From the human T2T-CHM13v2.0 reference genome, Homo sapiens: 64,000 nucleotides of DNA. The notes under the pieces were generated by a model. The model did no database searches and was not told the origin of the DNA. It saw nothing but the letters and a program-made list of their open reading frames with translations. Positions 5,409 to 57,500 of this stretch are shown piece after piece. The stretch lies in the NCBI RefSeq assembly GCF_009914755.1, contig NC_060932.1. One strand, given 5' to 3'. The position numbers and the translations under genes were made by a program. The first letter of the stretch is position 1. Each line of letters opens with the position of its first letter.

Positions 5409-8139
5409 GCCTTGGAGCATGAAATATCAATCAATAAATGATTCTTAATTGAAGGCTTGTCAACCATCTTTTCCTTTTGGAAATTGTCCCCTCAATTGGC
5501 ATTTAGGATGGTTCTGGTTACCTTTGCACCTCTCTAACAGGGACTTCTCTGCAATCATTTTGGATTCATCTTCTTCCACCTGCCCCTAAAACATTGCTGA
5601 TGAGATGCTGCTCCTCTGTGCTCCCACGGTCATGTCAACATACCACCCATGTGTCCATTCAGTCACTCGTTATTAAAGCAAACACTGTTTGTGGAGTGCT
5701 TACCAGGTGCCAAGCCCTGTTCTGGGTGTTTCAAGAGAGCCTAGAGAAACAAGAGAATATAAGTTCTTCTGTTTTCAGGGAACTTACATTCTATGATACG
5801 CACAGAGACAAGAATACAAATATATCAAATACAACGTTATTTGTCACATTGGTCTATCATTCATTATTGAGGTCTAAGACCTTGCTTTATTCATCTTTGT
5901 ATGCTCAGCATACCATGGTGCCTAGTAACAGATCATGTATAAAATACAAGAATAAATGATTGATCACTTAAATAAATGAATGAAAATGTAGCTTAAGTAT
6001 CAACTTTTCTATAAAATATGTTCTAAATTTCTCAGGCAAAATCTGGTTAACTCATTCATTCACTCACTCATTCATTCATTTAACAAATATTGATCGAGTG
6101 TCTCCTCTGTGCCTGGAATGGTTTGAGACATCTTATAAATTTCTGCCATGGTGCCTACCATAGTTTAGTACTATTTTTTGTTGATTTCCTGTCTCTAGCA
6201 CTCCACAAGGGCAGAAGGCTTGTCTAATTCATCTCTGGATCTCTCAACCTAATACAGCAACTAGCATATTGTAGGCATTCAAAGTAAAACTTACTTGAAA
6301 GAGATATTTCAACAATTAACAAAGAAATGAAATTACCACACTATGCCATGGCAGCTAAGTGCCCTCTACTTCTCTGAAAATACCTGGGTTGTTTATTTAT
6401 CTTAATGTGCAATGAAATGCAGAGGATACCCAGGTTGTGAAAAGATCTTCATCCTCATTCTGAAATCCTTCCTGCAACTTTCTACATTCCGTGACTCTGG
6501 AATGTAATTCATTTTTCTCAAATTGTAAGGATTTTGGAAGAAAATTTAGTAAAAGGCAAGAAGATTCTATGCAGCCTTGTCAATTTGCAATGTCCTCAAT
6601 ATAATAACTCAATGAGAGCTTCTCTCTGAGGTCAAAAAAAAATGTTTTCAAATGGACTGTTACAAACCCTTTGACTAGATTTCTTACCTATTCATGGTCA
6701 AGACTTAGGTACTAGTCTTAGAACTGCCCACAACTCATTGATGATCTTGGACAAATCACTCTCCTTCCTTGGACTTCACTTTTTCTTTCTGGAAAAGGAA
6801 ATTGGGCTGAAATGTACACATTTCCTGCAATTCTGATCCTTGGAGGAGTCTGTGAGTCTGCTCCAGAGAAGAGGCTGGTTCATAAGGATTCTTGTCTTTC
6901 CTCCCAGTAGGTTGATAGGCACAAAAATGACATTCAGAGGGGGTACTTCTTGCTGTCCTAAGATGGCCATTTCATGGACATTTATTGAGAATTAACTGTG
7001 TTCCAAGATCTACTAAAAAGGGATGTTTTTGTAAAAGGCTGTATTTTTACCTAATAAAGCTGTTGTTGAAATATTTCAACCTCTTAACTAATTCCTGGGA
7101 ATATACTATAATTCAGGGGGTGTCAAGTGGGCAAGAAGACAGGGCAGTGAGCTTCAATTGGGGGCTCACATCCTAATTGAGGATAAAACGGAGCACAGAG
7201 CAAGAACTCAATAAAAGCTCCAAAGAAACTCTATTACATAAATCTTCATTCTGAAGAATACCCAAAATGTATTATTTAGGGGTCAGGAGAGGGAAAAATA
7301 AAACTTCTAAGAACTTAAGTGATTAGGAGAAGGATTCATGACAAGGTGGAACTGGAATTGGACCTTGTGTGATGGGTGACAAGGTAAGTGGGGAGGAGGG
7401 GAAACACCTCTGAGAGTGAGCAGGAACTAAGGGAACCTTCTTTCCAGCCTGTGCAGTGGTTTATTTGTTTAATAAGCCAATGATAAGCACAGACCTTCTC
7501 TGAATTCTTGGGTCGATGTGAATCTGGGATTTGGGTCTACTATCCAGGATTGCCCAGAGCAGAGCCCATGTCTCATTGCTACAATGATGTGGTCTTATGT
7601 GTGGTATCCATCAATATCCTGTGTGGGCAGGTGACTTTAAGAACTTTCTCTACCTTCTGTCTGCCTATGAGTGAGTTGTACTGAAGGGGAGTCTCTTGTA
7701 GGAGAAGAAAGGAAACGCCTCTTTTTTCTATGAGACTAGGAAGAGACTCAACATTCATGGCCCTGTTGGACCTTACAGTTAAGCCTACTTCTGCTCTTTG
7801 AGTCCTTAGTTCTCAAACGTGTGGGAGATTCTGGAGGATGAAAGAACACTACCTGCCCAACTGGAAGCTAATTAGCTGAGAAGTCTTAGAGGTAAGATAT
7901 TCTGGCTTCTATTATTAGAGCCTCCATTTTGGCTTATTACAGAAAGCTTTATTATAAGAATATGTGTGTGTGTGCAATTGTGGTTTGCACATATTTATGT
8001 GTGTGTGTGTTGTATGTATTTTGGTGATCACTAGCCATTTTTTCTAAAAGTGGTAAAGAGGGGAGATGGTCCTCAATGATAAGCCTCTAGGAAATTAGAG
8101 TCTGATTTATCAATTTAAAAAAATTTGCTACTAACATTT

Positions 8140-8945
8140 ATTTTTATTGCAAAATGTACATAACATAAAATTTACCGTTTAACAATTTTAAGTGAACAGT
8201 TCAATGGCATTAAATATATTTATATTGTTGTGCAACCATCACCATCATCTCCAAAACTTTTTTTCACAAAACTAAAATTCCATCCTCATTAAACAATAGC
8301 TCTCTATTTCCACCTGCTCCAAGCCCCCTGTTACCACCGTTCTACTTCCTGTCTCTGCGAACTTAACTACTCTAGGTACCTCATATAAGGGGAATCATGC
8401 AGCATTTGTCCTTTTGTGACTGTCTTTTTTTCTGGTTAGCATAATAACCTCAAAGTTTGTTTAAGTTGAAGTGTGTGCCAGAATATCCTTCCTTTTTAAG
8501 GCTGAATAATATTATTTTGTGTGTGTACACCACGTTTTTCTTATTCATTCATTTGTTGATTAGTATTTGGGTTGCTTCCACCTTTTGCTACTGTGAATAA
8601 TGCCGCTATGAACATGGGTATACAAATATCTGTTCAAATTCCTGTTTTCACTTCTTCTGGGTATATACTTAGAAATGAATTGCTGGATCGTATGATTATT
8701 CTGCTTTTGATTTTTTGAGGAATTGCCACAGTGTTTTTCACAGCAACTGTGCTATTTTACATTTCTATCAGCAATGTCCAGGGATCCAATTTGCCCACAT
8801 TCTTGCCAATACTTCCTATTTTCTGGGGTTTTAAAAAATGTATATTAGCCATTCTAATGGGTGTGAAGTGGTATCTCATTGTGATGTTGATTTGCATCTC
8901 TCTAATGATTAATGATGTTGAGCATCAATTCATGTACTTATTCAA
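8140..8945 (-). mobile_element. Old L1MB-type 3' fragment
   Basis: Antisense L1 ORF2 end/3'UTR: gggtgtgaagtggtatctcattgtgatgttgatttgcatctctctaatgatt; tgtgaataatgccgctatgaacat. Confidence 0.85.
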
Positions 8946-11249
8946 TTTATTATTTTTAATGTTTCTGTATTTGCTCTTGATCTAAACTTTTCTTCCGGAC
9001 TACTAAGCTGATTTATACTGAAAAGCAAATTATTTAAATTCAATATTGTTCAGTGTAACTCCATAGGCATTTATGGAACACTTTATTGTGTGCAAGAGAT
9101 GGTATTCTGCTCTGTCCTGGAACTCTATGGCTGCTCTCTTGGGGCAATCATCTAACAGAGGAGACACACAGATATATAACTTGCAAACCAATCGGCCTAT
9201 GAGAACTGCTACAAGAGCAGATGACCAATTTACTATAGTAGCAAGGCTGAGATTCTTGGAATATGTAGGTCAACTCTTAGAAGACTCTATGATTCATTCA
9301 CTGATTTATTCATTAATTCACTCATTTATTCAGTAAACAGTTTTCAAATACTTGCTTTGCTTTAGGTAGTGTGCCAGGTAGCAGAGATGTAGAAAGGAAC
9401 AGTCCCTAGAACAGTCCTGCTCCTTTACAATGGCCAACTTTCTCATTTACCTCTAAGCAATCGCCAGAGAGCCTTAGATCCCTGGACATGGCCCTCTTCT
9501 CCCCTGCTCCACTTTACTTCTGTCCTAAGCCTTTCTACTTTATTCCGCTTCATATTCACTTTCCTACTTGCTTTGTATCACCCCAGGCCTCCGTCATCTG
9601 TCCTCACCTTTTACTACTGAATTCACCTTACCTCTGTGGAAGTAACGCTGATGGTGCCTCTTTGACTGTGGCACCTTCCGTGGCCCTGATTTGCTTTCTT
9701 TGCTTACTCTCGGTATAGTGTTTGCTCTGAATAACTGTCTGCTTTGTTCCAGCTCCCAAGGAGTGAGGCTGCTCCAAAGTTGGCTGCTGCAACCAAGTTC
9801 CTTTGGCCTCTAGAAAGGAGAATTTGATGATTCCTACTTCTAAGTGGACCACAGCTTGGTGTGGAATTGACTTGTCAACACATAACACAATGTCTTAAGT
9901 GCCAGAATGGAAGGCTCATATGAAAAGTGATTTTGGAATCCAAGGGCCAGTCAAGATGTTCTTACCAAGTGGACCTTTAAGCTGAGTTTTGAGGTAGAAG
10001 GTGACACATGGGCAAGGGGTGGAGTAGGACTTTCAAGGCAGATAGAACAACATAGAAGGCATGGGAATGGTAAAAAACTGTGATGTGTGTGTCTTTGGCT
10101 GGTGCTGGTGGCAAAACTATAGATACTTTGAGCTAACTGTAGTGCTCAGTGCTGATGACAGGATATTGGAGCATTCATAACATGGCAGCTTATTCATGAA
10201 ATAATTCTTATTTTTTTATGAGAAGTGGCAAAGTCATGAGTCCACACGTACCTTCTAACCCCCAAACCAGACCAACTCCTTGAATATTATTTTGGAGCAG
10301 TGTTTGATGATCAAGAGGCATGAGCCTATGATCTATATTTAGTCATGTGCTTGACAATATGGGGCCACCCTGTAAGAGCAGAGTTTCTGTGTCAGCTGGG
10401 GAAGTACTGATGTCAGGATGAGATCCTCTGATGATGTTGTCCCCAGCTTGGAAATTACTGGTAACAAAAAATGTTAGTCTTTTATATTGTTTTTTCACTG
10501 ATTCTGGTTGGCTGATTACAAGGTACAGGGAAAGCATTGTGAGCTAAAAAAGCACCAGTTTAAATATTTGCATGTGGGTTGCTGTATAAGATTTTCTATA
10601 TTTAATGCAAAAATTGAATGAAGTCATTCTAATGGGTATCTGACTCATTTGGAAAGTGAACACTATAGATTTGCCACATGCCAGTAAACACCCATGCATT
10701 TCTATACCTCTTTAAGTAGATGCTTCAATACTTGCTCTCATATTAGTATTATTGCCTAGTTGGCACACTTTAGTGGGAGTGGAAAAAACCATTTCATGGG
10801 TGTGAGTGGACACCAACCTGGGAGTGAGAAAATCTACATTCCAGATCTGGCTGTCTTATTGGGTGCTTGGCTGTGTGACTTTAGGCAAGTCCCTACAGGT
10901 GGACATTGAGAAGGAGCTGACATTGCCTTTTTCTAACTTGGATGGCACTAAATGGAAATTGAGTTAGGACAGAGAAAAGCAGGCTAGACACAAACAGGCC
11001 TTAAGTATCACAGAAAATTAAATCCCTGCAGAATATAATCATGGGGACTCAAATGCAACAAAAATATTAACTCTGATTTACAACATTCCCTAAAAATTTG
11101 TTTCATAATATTAATATTACAAGAAGACTGAGGAATTAGTGTCTTTAAAGCTGGTTCATTCATTCATGGTCTTCTTAAAGAGGACCTATTGAGTGGATGA
11201 ACTGTTAATTGCAATTTCAAGTCGAGTGTTAATAGGTGGTATGTTTTGA

Positions 11250-44820: not shown

Positions 44821-45624
44821 GGTGCAGCTGTTGGTGCCAGTGTTGCTGGTGTTGGTGCTGCTGGTGCAGGTGCTGGTGCTGTTTGTGCTCGTGCTGCTGG
44901 AGATGCAGGTGCTGGTGGCGCTGATGCTGCTGGTGCTGTTGGTACTGGTGCTGGCACTGCCTGTGGTTCTTGTTTTGCTAGTGCTGGTGCTGTTGCCACT
45001 GGTGCTGGTGCTCCTACTGCTGCTCGTGCTATTAGTGTTGGTGCTGGTGCTGCTGGTACAGATTATGGTGCTGGTGCTGCTGGTGGTACTGGTGCTGGTG
45101 TTTGCACTGGTGCTGCTTGTGGTACTGATGCTGGTGCTGGTGCTGCTGCTGCTGGTGTAGGTTCTGCTGCTGGTGCTGCCAGTACTGTTGCTGCTGGTGG
45201 TGCTGGTGCCAGTGGTGCTGGTGCTGGTGCAGGTGCTGCTGGTCCTGTTTGTGGTACTGGTCCTGGTGTTGCTGGTGCAGGTGCTGCTGCTGCTGCTGCT
45301 GCTATTAGTGCTGCTAGTGATGCAGGTGCTGGTGGTGCTGATGCTGCTGGTAGTGCAGGTACCGGTGCTAATGCTCCTGGTGCAGTTGCTGGTGCTGCTG
45401 GTGCTGGTGTTGCTTGTGCTACTGGTGCTGGTGAATGTGCTAGTGCTGGTGCAGGCGCTGGTGCTGCTAGTGCAGTTGCTGGTGCTGGTGCTGGTTCAGG
45501 CACTGGTGCTGCTTGTGCAGGTGCTAATGCTGCTGGTGCTGGCGCTGGTGCTACCTGTGTTAGTACTGGTGGTGCTGGTGCAGTCACTGGTACTGCTGGT
45601 GCTGCTGCATGTGCTGGCACTGAT
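44821..45624. repeat. Degenerate (GGT/GCT)n triplet-phased low-complexity repeat
   Basis: ~800 bp of GGT/GCT/GTT/ACT/AGT triplets in one unbroken phase; gives a 307-aa Gly/Ala ORF (44812-45735). Confidence 0.95.
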
Positions 45625-46717
45625 GGAGTGTATATCATAAGTCTGATGCTCTGCTCAGAGTTTGGATTTACCCTGAATTCTCATTACAGCATCCTTTCCC
45701 TCTCCTGCTTTCCTTCCTGTGCTTTGATACATTAACAAACTATTCCCTAATATTTCAGGGTACCTGGACTTAATCTAAGGCTCACAATGCCTTTTCTCAT
45801 GTTTCCACAAAACCACAGATGCAAATGACACATTCATAGAAAGGCATCTTTCCCTTCCTCTCTGTAAGCAGAACCCGAAGCTCACAGAGATGCATCTGTT
45901 CTTATGCTATAAACAGTGGCATGTCACCATCCCCCTGTTATTAGTGTAACTGCTGTGCATGCCGAGTAGATGCCTTTATCTTAGGAGCTGTATGTGAAAT
46001 GGCCCAGAAACATCATATTAAGACTCAAAAGATGCAATTTAAATTTCCTCTGGCTGTAGAGATGCCACCAACACAGTGATTACATGTGTCAAGCAAGTGC
46101 AATGCAGGAGGGTTCCCTGTAATTGTGGATCCCAGGCCATGGACTTCAGATGGAGGTGAAGACCTGGTGAAAGGGGCATGCATTGCTGGGCTGTGCTTGG
46201 GTATAGCAGGTACTCGGCGCATACGTGGGAGTTATTAATTTCAGAGATAGAAGGGGCTAAGGGAGCAGTGAGTGGAGGGATTGTTGCTGTTAATGAGAAA
46301 GATTAGGCTCAGAAAGCCATTATTGGCGTAAGGTCATGATCACACATCGAGGCAGAGTCAGGACTAGAACTCAGAACGTCTAAATGCAAATCCAAACCCA
46401 CTCATTTGTTCACAAAATATATTTTGAATGCCTACTAAGTTGTAGGTTCTATGCAAAGTAATCCACATACATGGGGAATAAGAAAAGTATTTTTCTCTAA
46501 GAGTTTACTGTCTGGCTACATCTTAGAGGCATCCTGGTACTTCAACAGACACCAAAGCCTGGCCCTGGTTCCAGAGTTTCTGATTTAATAGGCCTTTGAA
46601 GGGGCCCAGGTATTGATGTTTTCCAAAGCTTTCCAGGATGAAGAATTTTCAGTTGAATGCTGCACCGTCCAACAGGTGGTTGTTGCAATGTGGCTAGTTC
46701 ATAGTGCCATGTGCTAT

Positions 46718-46904
46718 TGAGAGGTGAAGCCAGCTGGACTTCTGGGTTGGGTGGGGACTTGAAGAACTTTTCTGTCTTACAAGTGGTTTGTAAAATGCAC
46801 CAATCAGTGCTCTGTAAAAATGCACTAATCAGTGCCCTATGGCTAGCTAGAGGTTTGTAAAATGGACCAATCAGCACTCTGTAAAATGGACCAATCAGCA
46901 CTCA
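46718..46904 (+). mobile_element. 5' LTR12, truncated within U3 and fused to pol
   Basis: CCAATCAG repeats then an abrupt switch to RNase H sequence (gtaacagtacttgaaagtaagcc). Confidence 0.85.
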
Positions 46905-48140
46905 GTAACAGTACTTGAAAGTAAGCCTCTTCCCCCAGGGACCAGTGCCCAGCTAGCAGAACTACTGGCACTTATCCAAGCCTTAGAACTGGGAAAGGGA
47001 AAAAGAATAAATGTGCATACAGATAGCAAGTATGCTTATCTAATCCTACATGCCCATGCTGCAATATGGAAAGAAAGGGAGTTCCTAACCTCTGGGAGAA
47101 CCCACATTAAATACCAGAAGGAAATTATGGAGTTATTGTACACAGTGTAAAAATTCAAGGAGTTGGCAGTCTTACACTGCCAAAGCCATCAAAAAGGTGA
47201 AGGAGAAAAAGCAGAAGGAAACCATCAGGCAGACACTGAGGCCAAAATTGCTGCCATGTTGAACCTCCCATTAGAAATATATATGGAAGGGCCTTTGGTA
47301 TGGAATAACCCTTTCCAAGAGATTAAGCCCCAGTATTCCCTGACTGAAACAGAATGGGGACTTTTGCGGGGGCATAGTTTTCTCCCCTCAGGGTAGTTAA
47401 CAACAGAAGAGGGAAAGGTACTCATACCTGAAGCTAGCCAGTGGAAAATACTTAAGACCCTCCACCAAACTTTTCATATGGGTTTTGAGAACACTCATCA
47501 AATGGCTAAATCCCTGTTTACAGGGCCAAATCTCCTCTGGACCATCCGACAAGTAGTCAAATCCTGTGAGATGTTCCAAAGGAATAATCCCTTGGTCCAT
47601 CGTGAGGCCCCTCTGGGGGAACAAAGAATAGGTCACTATCCTGGAGAGGACTGGCAGTTAGACTTCACCATATGCCTAAGTCAAAGGGATTTCAATACTT
47701 GTTGGCCTGTGTTGACACCTTCACAAATTGGATAGAAGCCTTTCCCTACAAGACAGAGAAGGCTTGGTAAGTGGTTAAAGTCCTAATTCCTAGATTTGGG
47801 CTTCCCCAAAGCTTACAAAGTGACAATGGTCCAGCTTTTAAGGCCACAATAACTCAGGGAATTTCTAGGGCGCTAGGGATACAATGTCACCTTCACTGCA
47901 CCTGGAGGCCACAATCCTCAGGGAAGGCCAAGAAGACAAAACACTCAAGAGGCACTTAAGGAAACTAACAAAAGAAACTCATCTCCCATAGCCTACTCTC
48001 ACCCATGGCCTTGTTAAGAATCCGAAATTCTCCTAAAAAAATGGGGCTTAATCCATATGAAATGCTGTATGGATGACCTTTGCTCACAAATGACCTCCTA
48101 TTTGATCAGGAAACAGCCAACTTGGTCAAGGATATAACTT
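46905..48140 (+). pseudogene. pol: HERV9 pol remnant (RNase H and integrase)
   Basis: Fragments TDSKYAYLILHAHAAIWKER, PGEDWQLDFT, LQSDNGPAF, WRPQSSGK; stops and frameshifts. Confidence 0.9.
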
Positions 48141-48818
48141 AGTATGGGAAAATGAAAACAACAAACTCACACACCTTTTTAGCATACACAGCCAGTTTTG
48201 TCTACCCAGCCAAGGCATATTCTTCTTATGTGGAACTTCAACCTCTGCCTCCCCACCAACTGGACTGGCACCTGCACCTTAGTCTTCCTAAGTTCCAACA
48301 CTGACATTGCCCCAGGAAATCGGACCCTATTAGTGCCCCTCAAGGCTCAAGTTCGTCAGCGCAGGGCCATACAACTAATACTCCTACTTATAGGGTTACA
48401 AAAGACCACTGCTACAGGAACAGGAATAGCCAGTTTATCTACTTCATTATCCTACTACCACACACTCTCAAGGTATTTCTCAGACAGTTTGCAAGAAATA
48501 ACAAAATCTATCCTTACTCTACAATCCCAAATAGACTCTTTGGCAGCAGTGACTCTCCAAAACCGCCGAGGCCTAGACCTCCTCACTGCTGAGAAAGGAG
48601 GACTTTGCGCCTTCTTAGGGGAAGAGTGTTGCTTTTACACTAATCAGTCAGGGATAGTACGAGATGCCGTCTGGCATTTACAGGAAAAGGCTTCTGAAAT
48701 CAGACAATGCCTTTCAAACTCTTATACCAATGTCTGGAGTTTGGTGACATGGGTTCTCCCCTTTCTAGGTCCCATGACAGCCATCTTGCTATTACTCACC
48801 TTTGGGCCCTGTATTTTT
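48141..48818 (+). pseudogene. env: HERV9 env remnant (end of SU and TM)
   Basis: RQRR furin site, LQNRRGLDLLTAEKGGLC immunosuppressive motif, CX6CC; cut off at FGPCIF by the nested insert. Confidence 0.92.
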
Positions 48819-48950
48819 TTTTTTTTTTTGCAGCACAAGATTTATTAAAGCAAAAGTGAAAGTAAAACAAAAGTGAAAGTGGAGCCTCCACAAGGGTGGA
48901 AGGGGACCCAGAAGTGTTGCCGTTTTTTGGCTTGGATGTCTTATGCTTAT

Positions 48951-49217
48951 ACTCAAGAGGCACTTAAGGAAACTAACAAAAGAAACTCATCTCCCATGGC
49001 CTACTCTCTTGCCCATGGCCTTGTTGGGAATCCGAAATCCTCCTAACAAAATGGGGTTCAGTCCATATGAAATGCTGTAGGGACGACATTTGCTCACAAA
49101 TGACCTCCTACTTGATCAGGAAAGAGCCAACTTGGTCAAGGATATAACTTAGTATGGGAAAATGAAAACAACAAACTCACACACTTTTTTAACATACACA
49201 ACCAGTTTTGTCTACCC
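48951..49217 (+). repeat. 267-bp copy of host HERV9 pol-env sequence 47943-48207 inside the nested LTR
   Basis: Direct alignment by eye, roughly 93% identical. Confidence 0.95.
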
Positions 49218-49689
49218 CTTATGACCCCTCCTCTTTTCCTTTTTCTGTCCTATAGAACTAGCTTATTTTCAATCTGCTTGTGGGTTGGTGGGCCTGATTG
49301 GTTAAAAACATCAGGCTGCAGCTAGAGCTTAAATTCCCTACATGATTGATTGAAGTCTCAATCCCTTAGCTTGCAGCTATGACTTATCTTGGCTTAGGGA
49401 AAGTCCCCTTGGATTGGTTGAAGTTTCAATCCCTTAGCTTGCAGCTACAATTTATTTTGGCTTAGGGGAAAGTCCCCTTAGGGAAGTCCCTATTGACCCT
49501 GGAAGTCCAGCCAACTTAGCCACTTAGTCCCTTAGTCCCCTCCTCAACAGGAAAGCTCAAGTGCTGTTGGGAAGTTGGGCGATGATCATTCTAGCTACTT
49601 CCTGCTGAATTAGGGCATAGAAGGGGCTCTGCAGTTGAGGTTTCCTCGAGAGGGGAGTCTTCAGTGTCATGGTGTGAGAACAGGTTGGC

Positions 49690-50247
49690 GGGTCAGTCTA
49701 GGGGTCCTTGATAGTAGGTGCTAGTGGTGGTCATTTTGGGCTCCATTTGTAGAACCATTTGCATGGATTCTATTCTGGAAGAGATAAATTTTACAAGGAG
49801 GTTAAAAATGCAGGGTCCATACATAAGCAACATCACAATAGCCACCATGGGTCCCAAGAATGGGAGAAGCCAGGGCATCCACTGGTTGACAATACTCCAA
49901 GGTCCTGTGTCATGGAGATCTTGTGCCTGGCACTGTATCTGGTCTCAAAGCTCTTTAACCTTCTGGATGACAATTCCGGATTGATTAACAAAATAGCAGC
50001 ACTCTTCTCCTAGAAAAAGACAGGTTCCACATCTTTTGGCTGTTAATAAATCTAAGGCTCTCCGATTTTGAAGGGCTGCTGCTGCTAATGAGTTAAGCTG
50101 GCTTTATAAGGTGACCAGCAAACCTGCGACTCATTCTATGTCATCATTTAACTCTTGTGATAATTTGTAATAAAATTGGGTGGAGGTGGTAATGCCTCCA
50201 ATGCCGGTCCATAGTCCTCCTAATATCCCAGCCCTGATAATGAATGG
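49690..50247 (-). pseudogene. env: Nested ERV env TM remnant (HERV-W/syncytin-1-like)
   Basis: GIGGITTSTQFYYKLSQELN, LQNRRALDLL, CLFLGEECCYFVNQSGI, MPWLLPFLGP; in-frame stops. Confidence 0.9.
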
Positions 50248-51089
50248 CAGGACAGTCCAGGTAAGCTGAGAAGCTGGGTTTGACAGATCTTTAAAGGCAA
50301 ATAGAAATTGAGAGTCAGGATGCAGACAGATACAGAAGGAAGTGTCCTTAAGATCTAGGACTGTAAACCATTCTGCTTCCTCTGGTATCTGGGAGAGTAG
50401 AGTATAAGGATTAGGTACAACCGGATACAGAGGAAAAACTGCCTCATTGATAATTCTGAGGTCTTGCACTAACCTCCATTGTGCGTTGGGTTTTTGTATG
50501 TCTAGAATAGGAGTGTTGCATGGACTGCTGCATGGCTTTAGTAACCCCTGTGCTTTTAGGTCTTTGATGATCTTTTGTAACCCTTGTTGGGCTTCTGGTC
50601 TGAGGGGTACTGCGTTTGATAAGGAAAGGAGGTAGGATCCTTTAATTTAACTTGAACTGGACAAGCATTTTTTGCTCATCCATATTGTCCTTCCTCTGCC
50701 TAGATGTCAGGATTAACTCCCTCCTCGAGCAGAGGGCAGCAAACAGGTATTCCTTCTCCTGCATGCAATTATATAATGGCCCCTGCTTTAGCTAATATGT
50801 CCCTCTCTAGTAAAGGAGGAGGGCTCTGAAGCATAATAAGAAAGGCAAGTGAGAAAAATAAGGTTCCCCAGCCACAACTTAGGGGGTGGGAGAAATACCT
50901 AGTGACTGGCTGTCCTAGGACCACTTTGATGGTGACAGACCTGGAGGACAGTTTTCCAGGACAGAAGAGTAAAACTGAGAAGGCCACACCAGTGTCCAAG
51001 AGGAAGTTAGTTTCCTGGCCCTCAATGGTTAAGCTTATCCAGGGCTCTGTGAGGGTGATGGCATGGGCTGGCGCCTGCCCTGGACACCC
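50248..51089 (-). pseudogene. pol: Nested ERV protease and N-terminal RT remnant
   Basis: LDTG protease motif; QDLRIINEAV, WFTVLDLKD, QLTWTVLP RT motifs; truncated before YXDD. Confidence 0.9.
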
Positions 51090-52251
51090 TTAGTCCTGTT
51101 GTTGGACCATCTGGTTAGTGGCCTCTGGCCCAGAGGACCTTTGCCCTCGGGGGCAGTGTGCCTTCTAGTGATCACTCTGGCACAAGGGACATGGACGAGG
51201 AGACAGCTTATTGTTGTTTGGGCAGTCCTTTCTGAAACGCCCCTGTAAGCCACACTGATAACAAGCCCCGTTAGGCGGGTTGCCTGCCCAGCCTTTCTTT
51301 CTTTCAGTGCCACCGAAGTTCATCTGCCTGAGGGCCATGACTATGGTGGCAGCCTTTTTCTTGTCTCATCTGTCTCGTTCAGCCTGCTCCTCCTGATCCC
51401 TATTATAAAATGCCAAAGTTGCCAAATTCAATAGAGTTTCCAAGTTTTGCTCGGGGCCCAGGGCAGACATTTGAAGTTTTTTTTCTAATGTCTGCAGCTG
51501 ACTGAGTGATAAACTTATCCTTTAAAATTAGTTTTCTTCCTTCTCCTGCGTTATGGTGGACATCATTGAGAAATTCATTGGCTTTTTTCTGGTCTTTCTT
51601 AATCCCTCTAGTATACAAGTCAGTAAATGCCTGCAATTCTAGTCTCCATGCTCTGAATCGAGGTCGCAATGGGGATCCACACTGGGAACTGCCTGTTGGC
51701 CTGTGGGGAATAGTTCCCTTTCTTCTGATGTCATTTTATCATTTATCTGGCTTAGGTACCAGAGATCCCCAAACTGCCTGGCCGCAGCTAAGGCAGCCTC
51801 TTTTTTGTTGGGAGTTAACGTTTGACCTAACAACAACATAATATCTCTCCCTGCTAAATCAAAAGATTGTCCTAACCCCTATAAGAGGTCTATGTATCCA
51901 TCAGGATTATCTGAGAATTTTCCTAGGTCCAGTTTGATCTGTTTTAAGTCTGAGAGGGAAAAGGGGACATGTACTCACGCTGGGCCAAAGTCTCCTCCTC
52001 CTCCCACAGCTTGGAGGGGACACAATTGAGGGCCATTGGCACCTTTGGTTCCTTGACTATCTTTTTGTCTGGTTCCTTTTCAGGCCGTTAGGGCCAAAGG
52101 AGAGTCCTTACTAGTGGGAGGGGGAGCAGTGGGGGGACCTGGGTGTGGGGGTAGGCTTTAAGGATCCCTGGTAAGATGTAAATCAAATTGGTCCCAAATT
52201 ATCCAGAATACACCTCAGAGGTGGCTTCACTTTTGAGGGAACATCTCCCAT
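51090..52251 (-). pseudogene. gag: Nested ERV gag remnant
   Basis: atgggagatgttcc start, ILDNWDQF, MLLLGQTLTPNKKEAALAAARQFGDLWY, degenerate zinc knuckle, QQQD-stop. Confidence 0.85.
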
Positions 52252-53820
52252 CTGAAGGGAGGGCATAGGAGTGCCCACGCTCCTAGTCATGCCCTAGTGA
52301 GCACTAGTCCTAGAGTGTCCCCTACAGTTCTAATGTCCTTTTCTTTCCAGGGTGCACAATCACCCATGGAACCCTGCTTATCAGATTTATTTGCACTTAC
52401 TGATGTAGCAATTTTGCCCACACTCATTTCCTGCCCTTTTTTAGCTGCAAAAAAGGGGGCTGGGGCTGCTGGATTTTAGTGGCTCCTTACCAGTGTGCCC
52501 ACAATTGTCTTTGCATCTGCAAGTGGGTCTTAGGTTCAGGGTGTATTTTGAGTTTAGAGACCAGTCACCAATTAGCATATTTCCAGGCTTGGAGCTGTCC
52601 CAGCAAGATAAATTCCTTGAAAATGGCACTGAAGCACAACAGTTTTAGGGTAGGCAGTGGCAAATTGGAGGACCATGGTTGGCGCAGTGCTTTTTGTACC
52701 TGAATTTTCTGTTCCCTATTTGCCCTCCTAAGAATATTCATTGACCTTTGGTCTTGAATAGGGGGACCTATTATCTATTATATTGTTTTTGGCCCATAGT
52801 CTGACTGCTTCGAGTGGAGAAGTTCTACAGTTCTAATTGCTGATCCCAAACAGGAAAGGTGGTAATTAAAGTGGCCTCTATAATCTGGAGTAAGTTTAGG
52901 GCAACAAAAGGAAAAATGTCCTAGGACTTCTGTCAGCCACTCACATGCCTTTTGATGTCCCGGATAGTGCCTAGGGTACAGGTTATGAGGGACAGGTCTC
53001 ATATAAGTATATTGATACATATTTGCATAAGAATAAGCCTGGGGGCACCATGGGCAAGGGTCTTTGGATTGCCACTCCACTCGACTTAGGCTTCTAGCCA
53101 AAAGATTCTTAGACTCAGGGGTAGGAAAGATCCTAGAAGAGAGGGCCTAAAGTATTCTCTGAGGACATTAGGACCCAGGAGGCATGGGTCAGAAAAGGCA
53201 GGGAATGCATGCATGGGCGGCTGCAGACTAGAGGCTTCTTGCTGTGCCATGATCTTGACTGGGTCAGTGCCAGGAGTTTGGGGGACAGTTTTCCACCTCC
53301 AGCCAGCCCTCAGCTTTTCCCAGGAAAGGTAGAGAAAGGTGGAACTGGTTTCAGGCAAACCAATGCTCCCAGCCTGGAGGGCCAGGGGTTGTTAGAGAGC
53401 CCTTTCCCAGAAAGCCTCACACCTGTGTCTTAAGTCCGGTGGCAGTGCTTGTTGCTTTTAAATGGCCGATGGGTGCCTGGTGTTTTCCTCCAAGTTCTAG
53501 TGAGAAGATAGAACAGAATAGCAAGTGAAAAGGGTTCAATGTTACTGTCTGTTTTGGAGAAATCCCAGGTGGGCCCCCAGAAATGAGACAAGAGGTAATG
53601 TCCCGATCAAAGGTCTTTTCTCGATTGAAGGGCTGGTGGTCTCACGGGCTTCAAGGAATGAAGCCATGGACTGCAGCGGTGAGTGTTACGGCTCAATTAG
53701 AGAAACACACAGACCCAAAGAGTGTGTGGTGGCAAGATTTATTAAAGTGAAAGTGAAAGTAAAACAAAAGCAAAAGTAAAGCTTCCATGCAGTGGAAGTG
53801 GACCTGGAAGGGTTGTCCCA

Positions 53821-54102
53821 GGCCCTGTATTTTTAACCTCCTTGTCAAATTTGTTTCCTCCAGGATCGAGGCCATCAAGCTACAGATGGCCTTACAAATG
53901 GAACCCCAAATGAGCTCAACTAACAACTTCTACCAAGGCCCCTGGATTGACCCACTGTCCCTTTGACTGGCCTAGAGAGTTCTCCTCTGGAGGACACTAC
54001 AACTGCAGGGCCCCTTCTTTGCCCCTATCCAGCAGGAAGTAGCTAGATTAGTCCTCACCCCATTCCCAACAGCAGTTGGGGTGTCCTGTCTAGAGGGTGG
54101 AT
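53821..54102 (+). pseudogene. env: Continuation of host HERV9 env (cytoplasmic tail) and 3' untranslated region
   Basis: GPCIFNLLVKFVSSRIEAIKLQMALQMEPQM resumes exactly where 48818 stopped. Confidence 0.9.
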
Positions 54103-54557
54103 TGAGAGGTGAAGCCAGCTGGACTTCTGGGTTGGATGGGGACTTGAAGAACTTTTCCGTCTTACAAGAGGTTTGTAAAATGCACCAATCAGAGCTCTGT
54201 AAAAAAGCACCTATCAGCACTCTGTGGCTAGCTAGAGGTTTGCAAAATGTGCCAATCAATGCTCTGTAAAAATGCACCAATCAGCACACTGTAAAATGGA
54301 CCAATCAGCAGGACATGGGTGGGGACAAGTAAGGGAATAAAAGCTGGCCACCCCAGACAGCAACGGCAACCTGCTTGGGTCCCCTTCCACACTGTGGAAG
54401 CTTTGTTCTTTCACTTATCACAATAAATCTTGCTGCTGCTCACTCTTTGTGTCTGTGCCACCTTTAAGAGCTGTAACATTCACTGCAAAGGTCTGTGGCT
54501 TCATTCTTGAAGTCAATGAGACCATGAACCCACCAGAAGAAACCAACTCTGGACACA
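54103..54557 (+). promoter_or_regulatory. Complete 3' LTR12 with several CCAAT (NF-Y) boxes, TATA-like element and polyA signal
   Basis: TG...CA ends; ccaatca at ~54185, 54252, 54277, 54301; gaataaaagctgg ~54335; aataaa ~54422. Confidence 0.85.
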
Positions 54558-57500
54558 CTATGAGACTTGAAATGAGCAGAAGAGTTTAAAATATCTCACC
54601 TTTTTTAAAAACTTCAAAAAAGTGGCTACTAGAAAATTAATGATACATATGTAGCTTACATAATTCTATTGAACAGTGCTGGTGTAGAGGAAGATAAAGA
54701 GACATTGACATCTTTTTTCAGTGACTGTACAATATCTCTCTATGATTCACTTACACATACACAGAGCCTACATACAAGGACACAAAGTGGCACAAAGAGG
54801 GTGACCCCAGATCATACCCCAGGCAATATAGTGGAGGTGGAAAATAACCTTTGCCCTGGAGATACACTGCCTAGGTTCCAATACCAACTGCAATGATTAT
54901 TTTTTGGATGGCCTTAAGTATACTAACTCTCTGTACCTCATTTTCCTATCTATAGAATGGTAAGAAAGAGGCTATTTAATTTTCCATTGAGACAATGTTC
55001 GATATCATTATTCTCCCCTCCATTGAGATTTAGCTCTGTGACCACCTTCCATTGAACCCAAACGTTTCATTTATGAAACACATAATTGCTCCCAACTGAT
55101 GCAATCCACAAGCATCAATTTAATTCCATTTCATGGTCTGTTATCATAACTCATAAAATATAATCTCTTTCCCTACTGACTTCCTTTCCGTTAAGTCTTA
55201 GGGAAAAGAGAAGTCAGATGAAAATGAGATGAGTTGCTGGCCAGGAAAAGTAGAGATGAAGTTTCTGATTCTCTTCTCCCAAACTCTTAATTTAAATGAT
55301 ATTTTGAGTTGGGAGAATTCCAAGCGGAAGCCAAGACAAAGTATGAAGGCAGTTTGTTTTCTAAAGTTTCATTGAGACCCAAAAGTTCATTTTTGGTAGT
55401 AGGAGTATCTGGTTGAAGACTGAACACTAGGCTGAATAGACCGATCATGGTCCAACTTGTGGTGGCATTTCTTTCATTGTCAGGCTGATGGGCTCAGGGT
55501 AGAAAGGGTCTGGTTCCTTCAAAAGCCCACACTGCCTGCTTTGCTCTATGCTACAGGAGAAAGAATGCTCCTGAGTCTTGACACCAACCCTGTTCTTCCA
55601 AGGCTGCCAATTTTCTTAGAAAATCAAAGCTCTATCCACCCCCCAACAACAACAACAACAAATAAGGAAAGTAGTAGGAATGAGAAAAAGTTATAATCTC
55701 ATCAGAATCTTCCTGCAGAAGTTCTTGACCTGCAGCTTGTCTGGGATGAAGAAGGTCAGCCAGAGACCTGGAGAATGAGCTTGGAGAGAGGAATTCTCTT
55801 GGGGTGGTTTCAGCAAGAAGAGAGTACACTCTATATAGTGAATATGTTCGGACAAATCCAGATCCACTCCCTGACACCAGAGACTAAGTAATCCACCTTG
55901 GAGACTAAAGAGACTGTTAAGAAAAATCCCATCATCACTGTTAGCAACTGTGCAGCAGTTAGAAGAATCTGGAAGAGTCTGGAAGAGATGAGCCTGGCAC
56001 TAAATATATGACCATAGGCAAGTCACTGGTTTCTCTGGGCTTACCTTTGCCTTAGTTTAAAGAAATATTAAGAAGTTTAGATAAGAAAATCTGCATAAAA
56101 TTATCCTATTAAACGCTATGATGAGTGCTGCAAAGAGAATAAAAGGCCTTGGTGATTCTGAGCAAGCAGAAATTAATGTGATGCGGAGTCACTGGAGATT
56201 CTGGGGAATGAGCTGGGTTAAACACAATAGATTTACTGGATATTTGCTAATTTTTAAATTTGTATCTTTTTATTACAATAATAATACATACTTATAAAAA
56301 CAGAGGGGAAAACAAAAAAAGAATTTCTAATCTTCCCACTTAAAAGTAGTACTTGTTAACATTTTTGAAAATTCTATACCCTATATGACTTAGTTTGGTG
56401 AAATAGAAGAGAAAATTTAGTTTTTTAATATTATTTAAACACAGATGTTTGGCTTGGGCAAGGAGGATATTTGGGTCTTGGATGGGAAATTTGGGTGAAG
56501 ATATGGTTGGAGACAAGTCATATGGATTTTGCAAAAAAGGCACCAGTAGTTTTCCCTTCTTGCTTTCTTTTTTGGAGGAAATCCATAAACTCTCAACTTC
56601 TCTGTCTCCCTTTCCTGCTTTCTGACCTTCTGATTTTATGAATTTCATAAACACATTGACATGATATGCTGTGGAAAATGTGCTCTCTTACTTGGTAAAG
56701 AGAACAGAGAGCTCGAGGGCCCTTCTGTCCCTGGTGGAGTTGTGGCACTAGAGAGTGTTGTTTGCTGTTAAATGAATTGCATGTCTGTGCTGGATTCCTG
56801 CGCCGGCTGCCTGCTGAGTTGTTAATGACAGGAAAATATTGGAGCCTTCAGATATGAACCCTGCTATACTTGTAAACTTCCATGTTGCCTTTTCTGGCTC
56901 CTGGCTTTCTGGGATCTGGGCATCCTCCAGCCCCTCATACATTTTCTATAATGGGCATTGTCATACATGATATGTGGCTAGAAATCTGTAGATTTAGATA
57001 GCTTTCTGATTCCAAATAATGAGGTCAGGTAATGGGACAGGGGAGAGAAAGATGAGTGGAGTGTATATTTGTGGCAGGTATGGGGAGAAAGAGAGAGAAC
57101 AGAGAGTCAGTGAGATAAGATGATGAGTGAGCAGCAAAGTATGAAAGGTAGAGAAAGAAAGGGAAGCATGGGAGAGGAAAAACACAGAAAGAAAATCAGA
57201 GACATAAAGAATGGACAGAGAAGAGAGAAGGAAAGAAGGAAGACAGGAGAGGAGCTTGAGAGGCAAAGAGACACAGTGAGGACAAAGAAGATAGAGACAG
57301 TCGTTACCACTTAATGAGTAATACTGGATTAGATGAAATATTCACAAAATGAAATCGGAGCTATAGACCAGTTCGGATGCCACTTCCCTGACCCCTTCTG
57401 TCTTCTGACTCAAAAGTGAATGCTTTGGAGATACACACCCTCTGTTGTCATCACATGGAAAGAGTTGATGGATGGCACCAGGAGAGGAAGCTTGTTTCTT

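What the first reader, a model, noticed from the sequence alone, without database searches (positions are those of the whole stretch)
48805..53834. L1-retrocopied ERV transcript nested antisense inside the env of another ERV
Seen: a 5.0-kb minus-strand insert begins at R (no 5' U3) and ends at R, with AATAAA 11 nt before a polyA tail (no 3' U5). It is flanked by a 14-bp TSD (ggccctgtattttt), and the target reads TT/AAAAA on the minus strand. Host env resumes in register on the far side. Known: these are marks of L1 target-primed reverse transcription, not integrase (the host provirus has a 4-bp TSD). Processed copies are common in HERV-W and rarely described in other HERV groups. Inference: env is syncytin-1-like, but U3 does not look like LTR17 and the PBS resembles tRNA-Pro. 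This suggests L1 mobilisation of a non-HERV-W lineage (probably HERV30).
Basis: partly seen in the sequence, partly recalled or inferred. Interest (0 to 1): 0.8.

Follow-up and report, generated by a model that had tools for sequence, protein, structure and literature searches.

The report
L1-copied LTR12F retrovirus transcript in HERV9
A 5-kb dead copy of a HERV-W-like retroviral RNA was pasted by the LINE-1 machinery, backwards, into the envelope gene of an older HERV9-type provirus, and at least six sister copies elsewhere show that HERV-W proper is not the only such lineage LINE-1 copied repeatedly.

Summary
Window 48819-53820 (minus strand) is a 5,002-nt insert that starts at the LTR transcription start with no U3. 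It ends AATAAA + 11 nt + poly(A) with no U5. It lies between exact 14-bp duplications (48805-18, 53821-34) at a TT/AAAAA site, inside the env TM region of a plus-strand provirus that has CTAT duplications.

It is not LTR17 HERV-W. Against the ERVW-1 locus only 56 nt of LTR align, and internal identity is 73-80%. Grandi et al. 2018 (Table S3) list the locus as "LTR12F, HERV17", with orthologues down to rhesus.

New here:
- The insert carries a 3.6-kb RT-to-TM deletion, found at four places in the genome, all retrocopies.
- At least seven members of this small family (about 40 LTRs) bear L1 hallmarks, against four proviruses with internal sequence that I mapped.
- About 266 nt of the host provirus's own pol has been copied into the insert's U3.

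None of my literature searches turned up a description of the LTR12F group as L1-mobilised. Verdict: real, mechanistically ordinary, and a modest extension of a HERV-W speciality to a sister lineage.

The parts
48805..48818 (.). Target-site duplication, left copy (GGCCCTGTATTTTT); it also encodes GPCIF of the host env TM
48819..48829 (-). Poly(A) tail of the retrocopy (11 A beyond the duplication; the boundary with the duplication's own A-run is ambiguous)
48830..48919 (-). 3' R: GGCAAC... to AATAAA + 11 nt; no U5 follows
48920..48951 (-). Last ~30 nt of U3, with the TATAAG box
48952..49217 (+). Copy of host provirus pol (integrase C-terminal region, host 47943-48207) at 92.9% identity in host orientation. 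It replaces 4 nt of the LTR. Junction microhomology is 1-3 nt.
49218..49535 (-). Main part of the 3' U3 (LTR12F-type; start approximate)
49693..50253 (-). env TM remnant (TLV_coat, syncytin-1-like), broken by stops
50246..50253 (-). RT-to-TM deletion junction ('type A', about 3.6 kb missing relative to the chr3 provirus). 8-nt imperfect microhomology (7 of 8 match); no GT..AG.
50254..51089 (-). Protease (RVP, 50769-51089) and the N-terminal part of RT (weak RVT_1, 50254-50646)
51165..52200 (-). gag remnant (CCHC knuckle in ORF 51165-51365; 73-75% to ERVW-1 gag); no Pfam match above threshold
52201..53561 (-). Leader / pre-gag region
53562..53579 (-). PBS-like tgggggcccacctgggat (tRNA-Pro type; 14 of 18 to the MLV PBS)
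53580..53820 (-). 5' R-U5. The copy starts TG+GGACAACC at the predicted transcription start; no U3.
53821..53834 (.). Target-site duplication, right copy
46714..54561 (+). Host provirus, with its CTAT duplications at 46714-17 and 54558-61. It comprises a 5' LTR stub (46718-46908) fused to pol (46912-48207), env (48183-48818 and 53835-53966, most of SU absent), and a 3' LTR (54103-54557).

Best explanation
The insert is an L1-made processed pseudogene of the genomic RNA of a defective, LTR12F-flanked, HERV-W-like endogenous retrovirus.

Proposed sequence of events:
1. A source provirus that had already lost about 3.6 kb (RT to env TM) was transcribed from its 5' LTR. Transcription started about 29 nt downstream of the TATA box.
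2. The RNA was polyadenylated 11 nt after the AATAAA in its 3' LTR.
3. L1 ORF2p nicked the window's plus strand at TTTTT/AA, inside the env TM of an older, already deleted HERV9-type provirus.
4. The T-rich 3' end primed on the poly(A) tail, and the whole RNA was copied by target-primed reverse transcription.
5. A staggered second nick produced the 14-bp duplication.

This happened before the hominoid / Old World monkey split. The same lineage was copied this way at least six more times.

Shown here: the anatomy, the family relations and the sister copies. Inferred: that L1 was the enzyme, and the order of events.

About 266 nt of the host's pol, templated from 0.75-1 kb away, was copied into the insert's U3. 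This most likely happened during a later break repair.
For: Retrocopy anatomy:
- The copy starts at the transcription start, has no U3 and no U5, ends in a poly(A) tail, and has a 14-bp exact duplication at a TT/AAAAA site.

Family:
- Identity is 80-92% to about 40 LTR12F-type LTRs and their internal parts, against 73-80% to the ERVW-1 provirus, whose LTR is almost unalignable.
- The locus is printed as 'LTR12F, HERV17' with orthologues from chimp to rhesus.

Sister retrocopies:
- 5 copies start at the same LTR position without U3: chr8, chr12, chr15, chr14 and chr1.
- 6 of 37 examined U3-bearing LTRs end at R with no U5. Five of these carry an A-rich tail; on chr14 the tail is degenerate.
- Duplications: chr12 9 nt, chr11 11 nt with 1 mismatch and a 5' truncation in gag, a second chr14 copy 18 nt with a 5' truncation in U3, and chr1 about 15 nt with 1 mismatch.

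Source lineage:
- The type A deletion junction is contiguous at exactly 4 places among the 40 candidates scored of 93. All four are retrocopies.
- A different deletion (type B) is shared by the chrY provirus, which has full LTRs, and the chr14 retrocopy. So deleted proviruses were transcribed and then copied.
- The tree is star-shaped, with terminal branches of 0.05-0.10.
Against: - No source provirus with full LTRs and the type A deletion was found. The search scored only 40 of 93 candidates.
- The chr14 copy has no clear poly(A) tail or duplication, and the chr15 copy lacks its 3' part.
- 5' R and 3' R of this copy are only 81% identical over 86 nt. That is more divergence than the roughly 12% expected from two terminal branches of about 0.06, though the stretch is short.
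- All five full-length copies begin with TG, which no U3-bearing LTR encodes at that position. This is unexplained.
- The 266-nt host-derived piece breaks strict collinearity with an RNA.
- No empty site was seen: the printed orthologue table shows the insert in all catarrhines listed, and I could not read other primate genomes.
Confidence: 0.93

Rival explanations
1. It is an ordinary HERV-W (LTR17/HERV17) processed pseudogene, one of the 135 already catalogued.
For: The TM is 43 of 51 identical to syncytin-1. RepeatMasker names the internal part HERV17. R shows faint homology to LTR17 R.
Against: - Only 56 nt of LTR align to the ERVW-1 LTRs, and internal identity is 73-80%, against 85-92% to LTR12F-group copies.
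- The PBS is Pro-like.
Confidence: 0.02
2. It is an integrase-made provirus that later lost its 5' U3 and 3' U5 by deletion.
For: The host and many family members are heavily deleted, so deletions are common here.
Against: - It would need two deletions ending exactly at the transcription start and at the poly(A) site, plus an A-tail, a 14-bp duplication and an L1 target motif.
- The same 5' end recurs at five unrelated loci.
- The one integrase-made duplication read here, the host's CTAT, is 4 bp. That such duplications run to 4-6 bp in general is recalled.
Confidence: 0.01
3. The retrocopied lineage is HERV30 (LTR30).
For: HERV30, HERV9 and HERV-W are close relatives. Two other LTR12F loci in Table S3 carry pieces annotated as HERV30.
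Against: The printed annotation for this locus is LTR12F + HERV17, with no HERV30. Its LTR matches the LTRs of the published LTR12F-HERV17-LTR12F element on Yq11.221. No HERV30 reference was available to me, so this was not tested by alignment.
Confidence: 0.04
4. This concerns the 266-nt host-pol piece only. It was made during the retrotransposition itself: the growing cDNA left the RNA about 120 nt in, copied the nearby host minus strand, and returned to the RNA. It was not a later repair event.
For: - Junctions have 1-3 nt microhomology and only 4 nt of LTR are lost.
- The orientation fits extension of the plus-strand cDNA.
- The template lies 0.6-0.9 kb from the nick.
- 7.1% divergence is compatible with an age near the hominoid / Old World monkey split.
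Against: - Returning to almost the same template position needs two switches.
- 19 differences in 267 nt are fewer than the roughly 31 expected from twice the copy's terminal branch. That favours a younger event or gene conversion.
- Templated insertions from nearby DNA during break repair give the same picture.
Confidence: 0.2

Closest known systems
HERV-W processed pseudogenes (Pavlicek 2002 and Costas 2002, known to me only through citing papers; Grandi 2016/2017/2018, passages read)
   Same: Genomic ERV RNA copied by L1. The copy starts at R, ends in R-poly(A), and has long duplications at TT/AAAA sites. 5' truncations occur. Retrocopies outnumber proviruses. The period is the same (orthologues down to rhesus). 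The internal genes and TM are closely related.
   Different: The LTR is LTR12F, not LTR17. The PBS is Pro-like. Internal identity to ERVW-1 is only 73-80%. The family is tiny (about 40 LTRs). Most copies descend from sources that had already lost RT to SU.
LTR12F-HERV17-LTR12F elements (Yq11.221; Grandi 2018 Table S3 / cluster II; Grandi 2020)
   Same: Same family. The window's insert, chr12, chr15, chr14, chr5, chr6 and chrY copies appear in that table. The printed lengths agree with my maps (chr15: 3,676 against 3,677 nt).
   Different: Those papers list the loci and place them phylogenetically. In the passages and the six supplementary files I searched, they do not type them as provirus or processed pseudogene.
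Retrotransposed HERV-K(HML-2) rec mRNA at 2q32.1 (Schmitt 2013, passages read) and retrotransposed HERV-H (Goodchild 1995, cited there, not seen)
   Same: Sporadic L1 copies of ERV transcripts outside HERV-W, with a poly(A) tail and duplication.
   Different: Those are single loci, and the HML-2 case is a spliced mRNA. Here an unspliced genomic RNA was copied, and at least seven times.
Cellular processed pseudogenes / L1 trans-mobilisation
   Same: The mechanism and the hallmarks.
   Different: The template is a retroviral genomic RNA, whose own R-U5 ... U3-R layout makes the loss of U3 and U5 diagnostic.

Membership tests
L1-mediated processed pseudogene (target-primed reverse transcription) | 5' end at the transcription start; promoter (U3) absent | tested here: met
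   The start aligns to LTR position 355-357, 28-29 nt after TATAAG. No U3 lies upstream.
L1-mediated processed pseudogene (target-primed reverse transcription) | 3' end at the poly(A) site with an A-tail; downstream U5 absent | tested here: met
   AATAAA + 11 nt + A-run. The LTR match stops at position 433 of 580.
L1-mediated processed pseudogene (target-primed reverse transcription) | Target-site duplication of about 7-20 bp | tested here: met
   14 bp exact, with only two copies in the window.
L1-mediated processed pseudogene (target-primed reverse transcription) | Insertion at an L1 endonuclease-type site (TT/AAAA) | tested here: met
   ggaggTT|AAAAATAC on the insert's sense strand. The consensus itself is recalled.
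L1-mediated processed pseudogene (target-primed reverse transcription) | Collinear with one RNA | tested here: inconclusive
   It is collinear with the type A deleted genome shared by 4 retrocopies. However, a 266-nt host-derived piece sits in U3.
L1-mediated processed pseudogene (target-primed reverse transcription) | Empty site in an outgroup species | not testable with these tools
   Table S3 of PMC5775608 shows the insert present from chimp to rhesus. No primate genomes were available here.
HERV-W proper (LTR17 + HERV17) | LTR17 long terminal repeats | tested here: not met
   Only 56 nt (80%) align to the LTRs of the ERVW-1 locus. R is only faintly alignable.
HERV-W proper (LTR17 + HERV17) | High internal identity to HERV-W | tested here: not met
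   73-80% to the ERVW-1 provirus, against 85-92% to LTR12F-group copies. Grandi 2018 report about 63% average identity to HERV17 for these 'HERV-W-like' loci.
LTR12F-flanked HERV-W-like group | LTR homologous to LTR12F as annotated in print | tested here: met
   Table S3 annotates this locus and the chr12, chr15 and chrY copies as containing LTR12F. The chr15 range holds no LTR other than the R-U5 matching this insert. RepeatMasker itself was not run.
HERV30 (LTR30) | LTR30 / HERV30 internal sequence | not testable with these tools
   No reference sequence was available. The printed annotation of the locus has no HERV30.
HERV9 / ERV9 (host provirus) | LTR12-type LTR with repeated CCAAT-box units in U3 | tested here: inconclusive
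   Repeated TGTAAAATG[G/C]ACCAATCAG units can be read in the host LTR. Calling them LTR12 rests on recall, not on an alignment to a reference. R-U5 is 74% identical to the insert's.

The most novel reading that the evidence does not exclude
Frequent L1 mobilisation is not a peculiarity of LTR17 HERV-W. It is shared by its LTR12F-flanked sister lineage, which has at least 7 retrocopies against 4 mapped proviruses with internal sequence, and an LTR that barely aligns to LTR17. The cause would then lie outside U3/U5: in shared leader, internal or R features of the RNA, or simply in germline expression during the catarrhine burst of processed-pseudogene formation. This would weaken the printed suggestion that the HERV-W LTRs play the central role, and the printed statement that HERV-W is the sole HERV group mobilised by L1. 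It would also supply a natural comparison set (LTR17 against LTR12F against the non-mobilised platyrrhine ERV-W) for finding the cis feature.
Probability: 0.55. Interest if true: 0.55.

Novelty: new member of a known kind. Interest (0 to 1): 0.42.

Why it matters
Reviews state that HERV-W is the only HERV group specifically mobilised by LINE-1 (PMC5537654). They also suggest that its LTRs are central to that (PMC5775608 discussion), partly because the closely related platyrrhine ERV-W shows no processed pseudogenes (PMC6995185).

A second catarrhine lineage with a very different LTR but the same retrocopy habit narrows where the cause can lie. It also corrects how these 'LTR12F, HERV17' loci should be read: they are promoter-less retrocopies, not proviruses.

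One of them is the 'truncated, TSS-less' LTR12F enhancer upstream of HERV-K102. Its truncation is explained by its being the R-U5 end of an L1 retrocopy.

For this window itself the element is an old, dead, non-coding insertion with no sign of function.

Tried and rejected
- Splicing as the cause of the internal deletions: rejected. None of the three junction types has GT..AG, and all show 1-8 nt of microhomology.
- tRNA-Pro identity of the PBS by finding tRNA genes in the genome: inconclusive. The 18-mer with 2 mismatches was not enriched over its control, and no loci could be cut out for ARAGORN. I fell back on a paper that prints the MLV PBS.
- A source LTR carrying U3 plus TGGGCAACC: none found, with no enrichment over the control.
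- Locus name in the Vargiu 2016 supplements: no match for the coordinate prefixes tried.
- Pavlicek 2002 (PMC155283): not held.
- Pfam on the gag/leader ORFs and on the integrase fragment: no family above threshold.
- Phylogeny to separate retrocopies from proviruses: a star tree with 6 of 7 inner branches unsupported, so there is no source structure to read.
Full report
**1. The observation**

On the plus strand, GGCCCTGTATTTTT lies at 48805-48818 and again at 53821-53834. It occurs nowhere else in the window on either strand. In the whole 64 kb only four runs of exact direct repeats of 14 nt or more lie 4-6 kb apart. One is this pair and two belong to the insert's own R-R pair.

Read on the minus strand, the 5,002 nt between the repeats begin TGGGACAACCCTTCC. 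They end ...CTTTAATAAATCTTGTGCTGC followed by an A-run. AATAAA lies 11 nt before the tail. On the insert's sense strand the target reads ggaggTT|AAAAATACAGGGCC, which is the L1 endonuclease type of site (the consensus is recalled). Leaving out the insert and one repeat copy, the host env frame runs on without a break to its stop at 53966.

**2. What the insert is made of**

Pfam finds a retroviral protease (50769-51089), a weak RT match, and two TLV_coat TM pieces (49693-50103), all on the minus strand. One open stretch (50131-50646) runs in frame from RT motifs straight into the env fusion-peptide region, so RT-C, RNase H, integrase and SU are missing.

A 51-residue TM piece is 43 of 51 identical to syncytin-1 in the PDB (E 1.5e-24). 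Syncytin-2 scores E 3e-14.

**3. Is it HERV-W?**

I located the ERVW-1 locus in the same genome as the 540-codon open TLV_coat frame at C7:93710269-93711453 (that this open frame is ERVW-1 rests on its position and length as I recall them). I fetched it. Against that provirus the insert shows:

| Region | Identity to the ERVW-1 provirus |
|---|---|
| Leader | 77% |
| gag | 73-75% |
| pro-pol | 80% |
| TM | 74% |
| LTR | only 56 nt align |

A local alignment of the R regions shows only faint homology. So it is a relative of HERV-W, but not LTR17 HERV-W.

**4. What family is it?**

A search of the window's own genome with the R-U5-leader gave full-length hits of 80-87% at eight other places, plus many R-U5-only hits. 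A U3 probe gave 44 candidates, 40 of them scored, at 40 distinct places. This is a small family.

A complete LTR is 580 nt (chr6 provirus; its two LTRs are 88% identical). Its landmarks:
- TATAAG at 326-331.
- AATAAA at 424-429.
- It is followed by TGGGGGCCTGTCCGGGAT. This matches the MLV PBS printed in PMC4587795 at 16 of 18 positions. That MLV uses tRNA-Pro is established knowledge.

Grandi et al. 2018 (PMC5775608, Additional file 1, Table S3, read) list hg19 8:129390098-129394380, minus strand, 'LTR12F, HERV17'. [quoted passage not shown]

The same table holds my chr12, chr15, chr14, chr5, chr6 and chrY loci. The chr15 entry is 3,676 nt and my match is 3,677 nt. Its only LTR is the R-U5 that matches this insert, so LTR12F is this family's LTR.

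I had no HERV30 reference to align.

**5. Is it an L1 retrocopy, and is it alone?**

Aligned to the complete LTR, the insert starts at position 355-357, which is 28-29 nt after the TATA box. Its 3' LTR stops at 433.

Four other loci start at the same position with unrelated sequence upstream: chr12, chr15, chr14 and chr1.

Of 37 examined U3-bearing LTRs (40 places found; 3 not fetched), 31 continue into U5. Six stop after R: chr8, chr12, chr1, chr14, chr11 and a second chr14 site. Five of these six carry an A-rich tail.

| Copy | 5' end | Target-site duplication |
|---|---|---|
| chr8 (this window) | full length, R-start | 14 nt, exact |
| chr12 | full length, R-start | AAAGAATCC (9 nt), after TT |
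| chr1 | full length, R-start | about 15 nt, 1 mismatch |
| chr11 | truncated at insert position 1876, in gag | GTAA[A/G]ATGGTG (11 nt) |
| second chr14 site | truncated inside U3 | ATTTAAAATTAAAATATA (18 nt) |
| chr14 | full length, R-start | none clear; tail degenerate |
| chr15 | full length, R-start | 3' part missing |

That makes seven copies with L1 hallmarks. Against them stand four proviruses with internal sequence that I mapped: chr3, chr5, chr6 and chrY.

**6. The source RNA**

I mapped all copies on the one near-complete provirus, on chr3.

- **Type A.** The insert lacks 6397 to 10015 in that frame, about 3.6 kb. The junction is ...CTGTCCT(G/A)CCATTCATT..., at an 8-nt imperfect repeat, with no GT..AG. 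A probe spanning the junction matches contiguously at four places only, among 40 scored of 93 candidates: chr8, chr12, chr11 and chr1. All four are retrocopies.
- **Type B.** A different deletion (6102 to 9535) is shared by the chrY provirus, which has full LTRs, and the chr14 retrocopy.
- **Type C.** A third deletion is private to the chr6 provirus.

So deleted proviruses were transcribed and their genomic RNAs were copied by L1. I did not find a type A provirus.

A tree of the leader region is a star with terminal branches of 0.05-0.10, and it does not separate retrocopies from proviruses. Together with the printed rhesus orthologues, this dates the whole burst to before the hominoid / Old World monkey split.

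**7. The host**

The plus-strand host has these parts:
- CTAT duplications at 46714-17 and 54558-61.
- A 455-nt 3' LTR (54103-54557).
- A 191-nt stub of the 5' LTR (46718-46908, 89% identical to the 3' LTR), fused to the 3' part of pol.
- An env lacking most of SU.

Its U3 carries repeated ...TGTAAAATGGACCAATCAGC... units, which I recognise from memory as ERV9/LTR12. I did not align it to a reference. Its R-U5 is 74% identical to the insert's, and its env 3' end 71%.

**8. An unexpected piece**

The insert's U3 holds about 266 nt that no other LTR of the family has. It is a plus-strand copy of the host's own pol at 47943-48207, at 92.9% identity.

Genome-wide, the local host is the best match and the only full-length one. 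Other copies of the host family reach 87-92% over the first 225 nt only. The piece replaces 4 nt of the LTR next to the TATA box, with 1-3 nt of microhomology at each side.

I read it as a templated insertion from 0.75-1 kb away, most likely during a later break repair. A template switch of the growing cDNA during the insertion itself is the alternative. The 19 differences in 267 nt are somewhat fewer than twice the copy's terminal branch would predict, which leans towards a later event. Primate orthologues would settle it.

**9. Literature**

- The 2018 discussion suggests 'a central role of LTRs'.
- The 2020 paper finds no processed pseudogenes in platyrrhine ERV-W.
- Schmitt 2013 (PMC3590776, passages) report one retrotransposed HML-2 rec mRNA and cite HERV-H and HERV-W cases.

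My searches were 'HERV30' + 'processed pseudogenes', 'LTR12F' (19 papers), a six-term search, and 'processed pseudogene' + 'ERV9' + 'LINE-1'. None turned up a description of LTR12F elements as processed pseudogenes. Table S3 gives no provirus/pseudogene type for them, unlike Table S4. Pavlicek 2002 and Costas 2002 were not available to me and might bear on this.

**10. Verdict**

The feature is real and the mechanism is the textbook one. The locus is already catalogued, but apparently not recognised as a retrocopy.

The modest news is at family level: a sister lineage of HERV-W with a different LTR was copied by L1 about as readily as HERV-W. The local news is the host-templated patch in U3.

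The TG at the 5' end of all five full-length copies is not encoded by any U3-bearing LTR and remains unexplained.

Noticed in passing
window 48952-49217 (copy) and 47943-48207 (template): About 266 nt of the host provirus's integrase-coding region is duplicated, in host orientation, inside the retrocopy's U3 next to the TATA box. It replaces 4 nt. Identity is 92.9%. The local host is the best genome-wide match and the only one covering the full length; other host-family copies reach 87-92% over 1-225 only.
   Followed up: partly
window 53819-53820; L034:963, L031:1002, L032:1002, L033:9499: All five full-length retrocopies begin TG+GGCAACC (TG+GGACAACC in the window). The 37 examined U3-bearing LTRs mostly read A(C/T)(G/A)GCAACC at that place, and none of them, nor the genome-wide pattern search, reads TGGGCAACC behind a U3. 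The two extra nucleotides seem untemplated. One guess is a cap-derived G plus one added base. Unexplained.
   Followed up: partly
L033 / L071 (G000:C1:154760100-154776725): The chr1 sister retrocopy has its R-start at C1:154776225 and its R-poly(A) near 154760620, carries the type A junction, and has a duplication of about 15 nt with 1 mismatch. It is split by a betaretrovirus-type provirus (Gag_p10/p24, dUTPase-protease-G-patch). By position it is the 'truncated, TSS-less' LTR12F enhancer upstream of HERV-K102 described in PMC11853044.
   Followed up: partly
window 46714-48207: The host provirus keeps only 191 nt of its 5' LTR, fused directly to the 3' part of pol. Only 57 nt separate the end of the pol match from the C-terminal end of SU. 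The same pol-to-TM spacing is seen at another copy (C7:54117243-54118196), so the SU loss may be family-wide.
   Followed up: no
window 44821-45619: Internally repetitive stretch (self-matches of 68-70% at offsets of about 200-450 nt) just upstream of the host provirus. Not examined.
   Followed up: no
L035 + L067 (G000:C3:121561935-121571980): This is the only near full-length member of the family that I found, with pol and env continuous against ERVW-1 at about 75%. It carries about 1 kb (L035 4141-5164) that all other copies lack.
   Followed up: no
L036, L038, L032: Three independent internal deletions occur in this small family, each at short microhomology. One of them (type B) is shared by a provirus with full LTRs (chrY) and an L1 retrocopy (chr14).
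   Followed up: yes
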